Below are positions 9,287-9,480 of a stretch of DNA of 64,000 nt, piece by piece. Under the pieces are notes generated by a model. That model ran no database searches and was not told the DNA's origin. It saw only the letters and a program-made list of their open reading frames with translations. The first letter of the stretch is position 1. Each line of letters starts with the position of its first letter. Both the position numbers and the translations under genes were made by a program. The stretch is from Eledone cirrhosa (taxonomy: Eukaryota): positions 72,478,001-72,542,000 of the forward strand of contig OZ024745.1 of NCBI GenBank assembly GCA_964016885.1, given 5' to 3'.

Positions 9287-9478
9287 ATAGGAACAAGTAA
9301 GACCCCGACGGCTGAGCTCAAGCCGTTTCGACGGCTATTTCTGGACAGAATTAGCCGTCGAAACGGCTTGAGCTCAGCCGTCGGGGTCTTACTTGTTCCT
9401 ATTACCCACTCTACTACCCTAAGTATTGAGTACTTTGGTGCGTTATGGTCCACCTGGTTCCTTACCACATTTGCTTCG

Positions 9479-9480
<2 letters not shown>
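9287..9480 (+). mobile_element. (TA)n-embedded element: 116-bp palindrome plus 78-bp tail
   Basis: Palindrome 9287-9402 (57-bp arms, 1 mismatch, centre GA). Homologous copies at 52824-53017, 61928-62054 and 62519-62646. Confidence 0.85.

What the first reader, a model, noticed from the sequence alone, without database searches (positions are those of the whole stretch)
9287..9480. Repeated 116-bp palindrome carrying half a hammerhead, with a flip/flop centre
Seen: two full copies (9287, 52824) share identical boundaries in (TA)n. The only asymmetric bases at the axis are GA in one copy and TC, its reverse complement, in the other. Copy-specific substitutions are mostly mirrored in both arms (AACAAGTAAG/CTTACTTGTT versus AACGAGTAGG/CCTACCCGTT). 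The right arm reads TAGCCGTC-GAAAC-GGC-TTGAGCTCA-GCC-GTC-GGGG, which is the stem II', GAAA, stem III and GUC half of a hammerhead; the CUGANGA half is replaced by the mirror arm. Known: flip/flop centres are a hallmark of hairpin-transfer replication (parvoviral termini), and PLEs carry hammerheads and form inverted termini. Inference: a small non-coding element whose cDNA snaps back on ribozyme stem II and is resolved through a hairpin intermediate. Later inversion or conversion between the arms is an alternative explanation.
Basis: partly seen in the sequence, partly recalled or inferred. Interest (0 to 1): 0.8.

Follow-up and report, generated by a model that had tools for sequence, protein, structure and literature searches.

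The report
Mirror-image mini Penelope retroelement insertions
The palindrome is a stump-sized insertion of a Penelope-like jumping gene that has tens of thousands of such ends in this genome, and its anatomy suggests that two short DNA copies are likely made from the start of one element RNA and joined head to head, which would explain a long-unexplained feature of these elements.

Summary
The element is not a separate non-coding element with a two-state centre. It is the shortest common insertion of an autonomous Penelope-like element (PLE) with Hydra-clade motifs; an intact parent (718-aa ORF, complete hammerhead with U3:A8 core) lies in the same genome.

The centre is a variable head-to-head junction: 51 types among 58 short pairs, and exact GA/TC is about 4% of arms. 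GA:TC relative to the tail is 40:29. Balance holds over all junctions (22:30), so it does not single out hairpin transfer.

Three regularities: (1) one arm carries the 80-nt tail and the other does not (58 of 58 short pairs); (2) both arms come from one template source (4 of 173 discordant, 64% expected); (3) short arms stop at or before a wall 64 nt inside the end, on the A of an initiator-like TCATTY in hammerhead loop II.

Best model (inferred, about 55%): both cut DNA ends prime reverse transcription at two internal sites of one RNA, run off its 5' end, and are end-joined. Fold-back with hairpin resolution remains the rival (about 25%). No RNA test was possible.

The parts
9288..9346 (-). 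Copy 1, inverted tail-less arm: the last 59 nt of the PLE pseudo-LTR, read on the minus strand and ending in (TA)n
9344..9345 (.). Copy 1 'GA' centre: junction where the tail-less arm (59 nt) meets the tailed arm (56 nt), sharing one base at 9346
   Evidence: same junction type in L286
9346..9401 (+). Copy 1, direct arm: last 56 nt of the pseudo-LTR
   Evidence: 131 of 136 nt (arm plus tail) identical to intact parent L299
9352..9387 (+). 3' half of a type I hammerhead: stem II 3' strand 9352-9359, GAAA 9360-9363, stem III with palindromic loop 9369-9376, cleavage triplet 9380-9382, stem I 3' strand
   Evidence: full fold of the parent
9402..9481 (+). Copy 1 tail (80 nt): in the parent it continues into the 5' UTR and ORF
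52825..52880 (-). Copy 2, inverted tail-less arm (56 nt)
52881..52882 (.). Copy 2 'TC' centre: tailed arm (59 nt) deeper than tail-less arm (56 nt), sharing one base at 52880
52880..52938 (+). Copy 2, direct arm (59 nt) with the hammerhead 3' half, of another subfamily than copy 1
52939..53018 (+). Copy 2 tail (80 nt), followed by (TA)n
61928..62055 (+). Solo tailed copy (48-nt arm plus tail), no mirror arm, in (TA)n
62519..62648 (+). Older solo tailed copy (50-nt arm plus tail), no mirror arm, in (TA)n

Best explanation
The element is a minimal insertion of an autonomous (TA)n-targeting Penelope-like retroelement, made of two truncated copies of its pseudo-LTR end joined head to head, and it likely forms when both ends of the cut target prime reverse transcription on one RNA. 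SHOWN: parent identity; variable junction; one tailed plus one tail-less arm; shared template source; wall at 64 nt. INFERRED steps: (1) the pseudo-LTR promoter starts the RNA at the A of TCATTY inside hammerhead loop II, so this RNA holds only the ribozyme's 3' half, the tail and the ORF; (2) the endonuclease cuts both strands of (TA)n; (3) one DNA end primes at the inner start site (+64, tail-less end), the other at the outer site (+144, tail end); (4) both cDNAs run off the RNA's 5' end, lose 0-10 nt and are joined by microhomology or with filler bases; (5) which cDNA ends longer is random, giving GA or TC and their mirror-image kin. Read-through RNAs give the same structure with long arms, complete hammerheads and sometimes a whole element.
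For: Parent: L299 has an intact 718-aa ORF between hammerhead-bearing pseudo-LTRs, an inverted tailed arm on the left and a tail-less right end. Junctions: 51 types in 58 short pairs; 24 with overlap, 6 blunt, 28 with filler. Tail rule: 58 of 58 short pairs, 69 of 71 exact GA/TC junctions, 7 of 7 long pairs with both outer ends seen (read by eye). Either arm can be deeper: 22 tailed, 30 tail-less, 6 equal (p=0.33); GA and TC occur in each of five subfamilies and among copies with identical arms (15:8). The tail-less end is a primary start: solo tail-less copies (L131, L279, L310, L317) and the direct 3' end of full-length copies. One template: 4 of 173 pairs with two or more diagnostic mismatches against 64% expected; long arms pair with long, short with short (at most 1 mixed of 67, 19 expected). 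Wall: 106 of 128 arms end at 50-64, none at 65-97, 22 at 98 or more; genome-wide 8,784 arms reach 64 but 5,065 reach 67. A PLE protein cuts and extends both DNA strands and starts at two internal sites bracketing the tail (PMC11167929).
Against: No RNA 5' end was seen; TCATTY as initiator consensus is recalled, and such a hexamer is common. The wall also coincides with the 3' strand of a predicted inner hairpin (depth 56-64), so stalling fits too. One template for both arms is equally what fold-back predicts, and two polymerases copying the same stretch of one RNA has not been shown. Exceptions exist: both-tail copies (L022, L023, L061, L110) and no-tail copies (L204, second element in L022); two rows of the list inside L022 were not in the 71, and with them the count is 69 of 73. 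Two arms of an older subfamily (L182) were scored 63 for lack of a matching ruler but run to about 74-76, and 4 of 195 arms in the selected loci end at 65-94. The genome-wide count still falls from 5,065 to 3,400 between depth 67 and 99 (partly subfamily variation, not separated). In PAc the start sites lie inside the ORF and no link to inverted arms is drawn in the parts read.
Confidence: 0.55

Rival explanations
1. Fold-back with hairpin resolution (first reader; self-priming of Arkhipova et al. 2013): one cDNA snaps back on itself, copies its own start, and a hairpin or two-tailed palindrome is opened so that either arm keeps the tail.
For: Both arms share one template; GA:TC 40:29; two-tailed palindromes exist (L022, L110); self-priming was proposed for PLE palindromes (PMC3846280).
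Against: Plain fold-back of a tail-primed cDNA makes the tailed arm always the deeper one, but the tail-less arm is deeper in 30 of 52, by more than 1 kb in L178 and L320. An extra step must remove exactly one tail in 58 of 58. 28 of 58 junctions hold filler and 6 are blunt. Tail-less ends also occur without any mirror arm.
Confidence: 0.25
2. Two-ended priming as in the best model, but the wall is a reverse-transcriptase stop at RNA structure or bound protein in loop II of a longer RNA, not the RNA's 5' end.
For: The predicted inner hairpin's 3' strand spans depth 56-64, the range of arm ends.
Against: The fold is weak (z -0.55 and -0.75). A stop hitting each polymerase independently predicts about 19 long-short pairs in 67; at most 1 was seen. 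A/T runs at several junctions (L112, L279, L319, L329) look like slippage at a template end (inference).
Confidence: 0.12
3. The centre flips, or arms are homogenised, after insertion by recombination between arms.
For: Two mirrored rare variants in 51 copies; recombination between inverted repeats inverts a spacer (general knowledge).
Against: 51 one-arm rare variants against 2 mirrored; both states are present among copies with identical arms, 15 GA and 8 TC. It does not explain the tail rule or the wall.
Confidence: 0.05
4. A fixed non-autonomous master (MITE-, SINE- or retrozyme-like) is copied whole in two orientations.
For: 573 exact GA/TC centres; constant outer boundaries.
Against: Exact GA/TC is about 4% of arms and recurs in five subfamilies; 51 junction types; continuum to full-length parent; no complete hammerhead or tandem units as retrozymes have.
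Confidence: 0.03

Closest known systems
Inverted pseudo-LTR plus tail insertion units of EN+ Penelope-like elements (PMC3846280 passages; PMC8557442 passages; PMC8969392 passages)
   Same: 5'-truncated copy with an adjacent inverted truncated copy head to head, palindrome at the junction, tail at one end only, partial tandems forming pseudo-LTRs, microsatellite targets.
   Different: Tail is 80 nt (30-40 nt there); over 80% of arms are under 65 nt with a sharp wall inside the hammerhead; the tail rule and junction symmetry are counted here, not in the passages read.
Hydra clade of C-terminal EN+ PLEs (PMC8557442 section 11)
   Same: Single ORF, RWR for RWK, DKT, CxCX5C linker, CxxC and CxH in the nuclease, hammerhead, (TA)n target, unit about 3.1 kb.
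   Different: No tree was built and no reference sequence compared; hammerhead core is U3:A8; copy number very high.
PAc (Poseidon, Anolis) in vitro mechanism (PMC11167929)
   Same: Two internal RT start sites bracketing the tail; both target strands cut and extended; uncleaved RNA as template; AT-rich target.
   Different: There the start sites lie in the ORF; here upstream of the ATG. The parts read do not explain inverted arms.
PLE hammerheads, including the U3-A8 core variant (PMC4209133)
   Same: Type I fold, long stem II, palindromic loop 3, U3-A8 covariation.
   Different: Stem III is longer and loop II large; most genomic copies hold only the 3' half.
Parvoviral flip/flop termini and L1 twin priming (both recalled, no call)
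   Same: Two mirror-image centre states (parvovirus); two primers on one RNA giving an inversion (L1).
   Different: Not two fixed states but many junctions; unlike L1, the inverted part duplicates the direct part.
Non-LTR retrozymes (bioRxiv 10.64898/2026.07.22.740005 part 1)
   Same: Small, non-coding, PLE-derived, type I hammerhead sequence.
   Different: Retrozymes are head-to-tail tandems with complete ribozymes; these are head-to-head with half a ribozyme.

Membership tests
EN+ Penelope-like element (parent) | Single ORF with RT and C-terminal GIY-YIG nuclease | tested here: met
   718-aa ORF with YRDD at 347 and YIG at 605; Atlas look-alikes at 0.96-0.99 carry GIY-YIG, RVT_1, HTH_animal in part of their members. 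Pfam and PDB searches gave no hit.
EN+ Penelope-like element (parent) | Partial tandem forming pseudo-LTRs, inverted 5' copy, tail at one end | tested here: met
   L299 and L062/L066.
EN+ Penelope-like element (parent) | Hammerhead in the pseudo-LTR | tested here: met
   Minimum-energy fold of L066 and L299 gives the three-stem topology with the core unpaired (z not significant; L128 and L054 folded otherwise); N7 varies among 11 copies.
Hydra clade | RWK, DKT, CxCX5C, CxxC and CxH motifs; no CX2-5CxxC linker | tested here: met
   RWR 36, DKT 116, CxCX5C 571, CxxC 669, CxH 697, no CX2-5CxxC, against PMC8557442 section 11.
Hydra clade | Insertion into (TA)n | tested here: met
   Outer ends in (TA)n in nearly all copies viewed.
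Hydra clade | RT phylogeny groups with Hydra families | not tested
   No reference set fetched; supplementary files of PMC8557442 not read.
Active hammerhead ribozyme | Self-cleavage | not testable with these tools
   Window copies lack the 5' half; parent untested. No hammerhead family among the 150 Rfam rows shown of 382.
Hairpin-transfer (flip/flop) termini | Two fixed, mutually inverted centre states | tested here: not met
   51 junction types in 58; exact GA/TC 3 of 58 and about 4% of arms genome-wide.
Hairpin-transfer (flip/flop) termini | Both orientations near 1:1 | tested here: met
   40:29; 22:30 over all junctions. Not diagnostic.
Non-LTR retrozyme | Head-to-tail tandem units each with a complete hammerhead | tested here: not met
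   Head-to-head, half ribozyme.
MITE | Fixed-size unit with symmetric terminal inverted repeats from a DNA transposon | tested here: not met
   Asymmetric ends in 58 of 58, variable centre, parent is a retroelement.

The most novel reading that the evidence does not exclude
PLE inverted repeats in general are made by coordinated twin priming: one complex uses both ends of the cut DNA and two fixed start sites on one RNA, and the promoter starts the RNA inside the hammerhead, so the mRNA carries half a ribozyme and most transposition events end as 200-bp palindromes. This genome records the rule in thousands of insertions.
Probability: 0.4. Interest if true: 0.7.

Novelty: new member of a known kind. 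Interest (0 to 1): 0.45.

Why it matters
The structure is a known PLE signature, so the element itself is ordinary. The counts matter more. How PLEs form inverted repeats and one-sided tails is stated as open in PMC8557442 and PMC11167929. This family gives three sharp rules (one tail per insertion, one template source, a wall at one base inside the hammerhead) and an intact parent ORF, which turn that question into a direct test. It also warns that such palindromes can be misfiled as MITEs or hairpin RNA genes.

Tried and rejected
Rfam scan of the window: the 150 rows shown of 382 were microRNA models below their cut-offs, mostly on microsatellites; one weak hit on copy 2 (mir-5918, 35.5 bits against 69) rejected. 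The repeat finder was swamped by microsatellites. DNA searches with two common-word queries returned nothing because frequent words are skipped. Pfam and PDB gave no hit for the parent protein. Sequencing runs: no RNA holder listed, so nothing is concluded on expression or the RNA start. Laying runs on the pseudo-LTR: contigs of run X1 step up about 17-fold between 3520-3529 and 3550-3559, in line with the wall, but it is no copy number; the RAD reads probably begin at a restriction site at 3542 and were not used; no joints were listed. A cap-derived extra G at depth 65 was looked for by eye and not seen consistently. A first junction script was confounded by the tail in the ruler and redone. 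Random 10-kb stretches (94) gave only 6 of the 58 scored pairs. No structure or complex prediction was run. Literature searches found no paper stating twin priming for PLE inverted repeats or describing this family; the library lacks most subscription papers, and no supplements were read (those of PMC8557442 and PMC11167929 may bear on clade membership and on priority). Look-ups of earlier scan notes by sequence and by place were empty.

Full report
OBSERVATION. The window holds the two palindromes as described: 58-nt arms, GA or TC at the axis, mirrored outer substitutions, one off-axis mismatch each, an 80-nt tail and (TA)n flanks. Two solo tailed copies lie at 61928 and 62519. The window is G000:C5:72478001-72542000 of a 3.0-Gb genome. 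The microsatellite load suggested a cephalopod to me; that is recall and untested. A 22-nt arm word occurs 30,393 times and the 30-nt GA/TC centre 573 times, controls 0.

PARENT. A tail-only query, blind to the centre, returned copies in which other sequence continues upstream of the right arm. That sequence is the 3' UTR of a PLE. L066 is a near-complete copy with a stop and a frameshift. L299 (G000:C1:11225800-11232500) has an intact 718-aa ORF with RWR, DKT, YRDD, CxCX5C, YIG, CxxC and CxH, the motif set of the Hydra clade, which inserts in (TA)n and carries hammerheads (PMC8557442 section 11). No tree was built. Window copies match its arm plus tail at 131 and 127 of 136 nt. The parent hammerhead is complete, with a U3:A8 core, a variant reported in PLEs (PMC4209133); L066 and L299 fold into the three-stem topology, though not better than shuffles, and two other copies folded otherwise. 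The tail is the start of the 5' UTR. L299 reads: inverted tailed arm, truncated direct copy, full unit, tail-less end. This is the known PLE insertion layout (PMC3846280, PMC8557442, PMC8969392).

THE CENTRE. Depth is counted inward from the tail-less end. GA means the tail-less arm reaches 59 and the tailed arm 56; TC is the reverse; each shares one base. I scored 58 short head-to-head pairs: 52 from consecutive exact-arm places on C1 (2.2-22.5 Mb) and 6 from 94 random 10-kb stretches. The set favours arms of 56 nt or more, includes one local duplicate, and about four rows with internal indels have miscalled depths. There were 51 junction types: 24 with overlap, 6 blunt, 28 with filler; exact GA/TC was 3 of 58. 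The tailed arm was deeper in 22, the tail-less in 30, equal in 6 (p=0.33). Among 71 exact GA/TC junctions taken in list order from the 573, 40 were GA, 29 TC and 2 had no tail (p=0.23); two listed places inside L022 were left out of that count and are one both-tail and one no-tail element. Both states occur in five subfamilies and among copies with identical arms, 15:8. The centre is therefore built anew at each insertion, and the 1:1 ratio is general.

THREE RULES. (1) One tailed and one tail-less arm: 58 of 58 short pairs, 69 of 71, 7 of 7 long pairs with both ends seen (by eye); random choice of start would give half. Both-tail and no-tail exceptions exist in other loci. (2) One template source: arms differ by 1.1 within and 2.7 between copies; 4 of 173 pairs differ at two or more diagnostic sites against 64% expected, and only L102 looks like a clean chimera (that script would miss strongly divergent partners such as L117). 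Long arms pair with long: 8 long-long, 1 long with a tail piece, 2 solo, 1 unresolved, against 19 mixed expected in 67. After insertion the arms drift apart: 51 one-arm rare variants, 2 mirrored. (3) A wall: of 128 arms holding the depth 35-50 word, 106 end at 50-64, none at 65-97, 22 at 98 or more. Caveats: two L182 arms of an older subfamily really run to about 74-76, and 4 of 195 arms in selected loci end at 65-94. Genome-wide, 8,784 arms reach 64, 5,065 reach 67 and 3,400 match at 78-99. Depth 64 is the A of TCATTY in hammerhead loop II, present in 10 of 11 aligned parents, which fits the initiator consensus as I recall it. PLE pseudo-LTRs hold promoters with initiator-like motifs (PMC2377424, PMC3846280).

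MECHANISM (inferred). A PLE protein cuts and extends both target strands, starts at two internal sites that bracket the tail, uses uncleaved RNA and is predicted to dimerise (PMC11167929). Applied here: RNA begins at depth 64; the two DNA ends prime at the inner and outer sites; both cDNAs run off the 5' end and are end-joined. This gives the half hammerhead, the size, the tail rule, the symmetry and the filler in one scheme. Solo tail-less copies show that the inner end is a primary start. Fold-back explains the shared template as well, but needs an extra step that swaps which arm is deeper and removes exactly one tail. I put the best model at 0.55, fold-back with resolution at 0.25, stalling instead of run-off at 0.12. 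That the element is a truncated PLE insertion is close to certain.

COMPARISON AND NOVELTY. It is a member of the EN+ PLE kind and meets the Hydra motif tests. It fails the defining tests for two-state flip/flop termini, retrozymes and MITEs. Four earlier scan notes describe similar mini PLE insertions in shark- and fish-like genomes (seen after my reading was noted); they are unchecked leads, and two place the 5' wall at the stem I edge, not in loop II. Seven literature searches found no statement of the twin-priming explanation.

PAPERS SEEN. PMC4209133 parts 1-2 of 4; PMC11167929 parts 1-2 of 4 and passages; PMC8557442 passages and section 11; PMC3846280, PMC2377424 and PMC8969392 passages; bioRxiv 10.64898/2026.07.22.740005 part 1 of 5. 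No supplements. Parvoviral flip/flop, L1 twin priming and the initiator consensus are recalled.

VERDICT. Real; known kind; interest 0.45, carried by the mechanistic rules and their testability.

Noticed in passing
L299 (G000:C1:11225800-11232500), ORF 3280-5439 +: Intact 718-aa parent ORF in a complete insertion unit; its inverted and direct arms differ at 6 of 830 positions.
   Followed up: yes
window 23445-24958, minus strand: [quoted passage not shown]
   Followed up: no
window 48163-50847, plus strand: RTE-like LINE ORF in three pieces with a C-terminal zinc-finger-like part (family name recalled).
   Followed up: no
window 56492-58885 and 29437-30804, minus strand: Two broken non-LTR elements with DDLKLY RT motif; the first has a restriction-like nuclease motif (names recalled).
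   Followed up: no
window 10045-10370: A 326-bp self-inverted element (79% over the whole, near-perfect outer arms), MITE-like.
   Followed up: no
window 31927-32020: About 40-bp inverted arms around a (TA)n centre; scored as a microRNA-like hairpin below cut-off.
   Followed up: no
window 51231-52459, 12448-12990, 31331-31890, 40801-41390: Young repeat of about 620 bp (96-97% identity), once as a tandem dimer.
   Followed up: no
window 60040-60431, 37949-38314, 35919-36111, 27667-27847 and others: Abundant repeat of about 190 bp, often in tandem pairs, SINE-like.
   Followed up: no
L112, L279, L319, L329 junctions; L199, L222, L248 junctions: Junctions with A/T runs next to the TTT at depth 61-63, and junctions with short tandem repeats of the arm start; both look like slippage or re-priming at a template end.
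   Followed up: partly
L102:1441-1636 and L117:1430-1636: Palindromes whose two arms come from different subfamilies, so two templates are sometimes used.
   Followed up: partly
L064 638-2121 and 4262-5359; L065 6511-7146: Further PLE families with CxCX5C-like linkers nested beside a copy of this family.
   Followed up: no
L061 4913-8323, minus strand: Open 1,137-codon frame of an RTE-like LINE.
   Followed up: no
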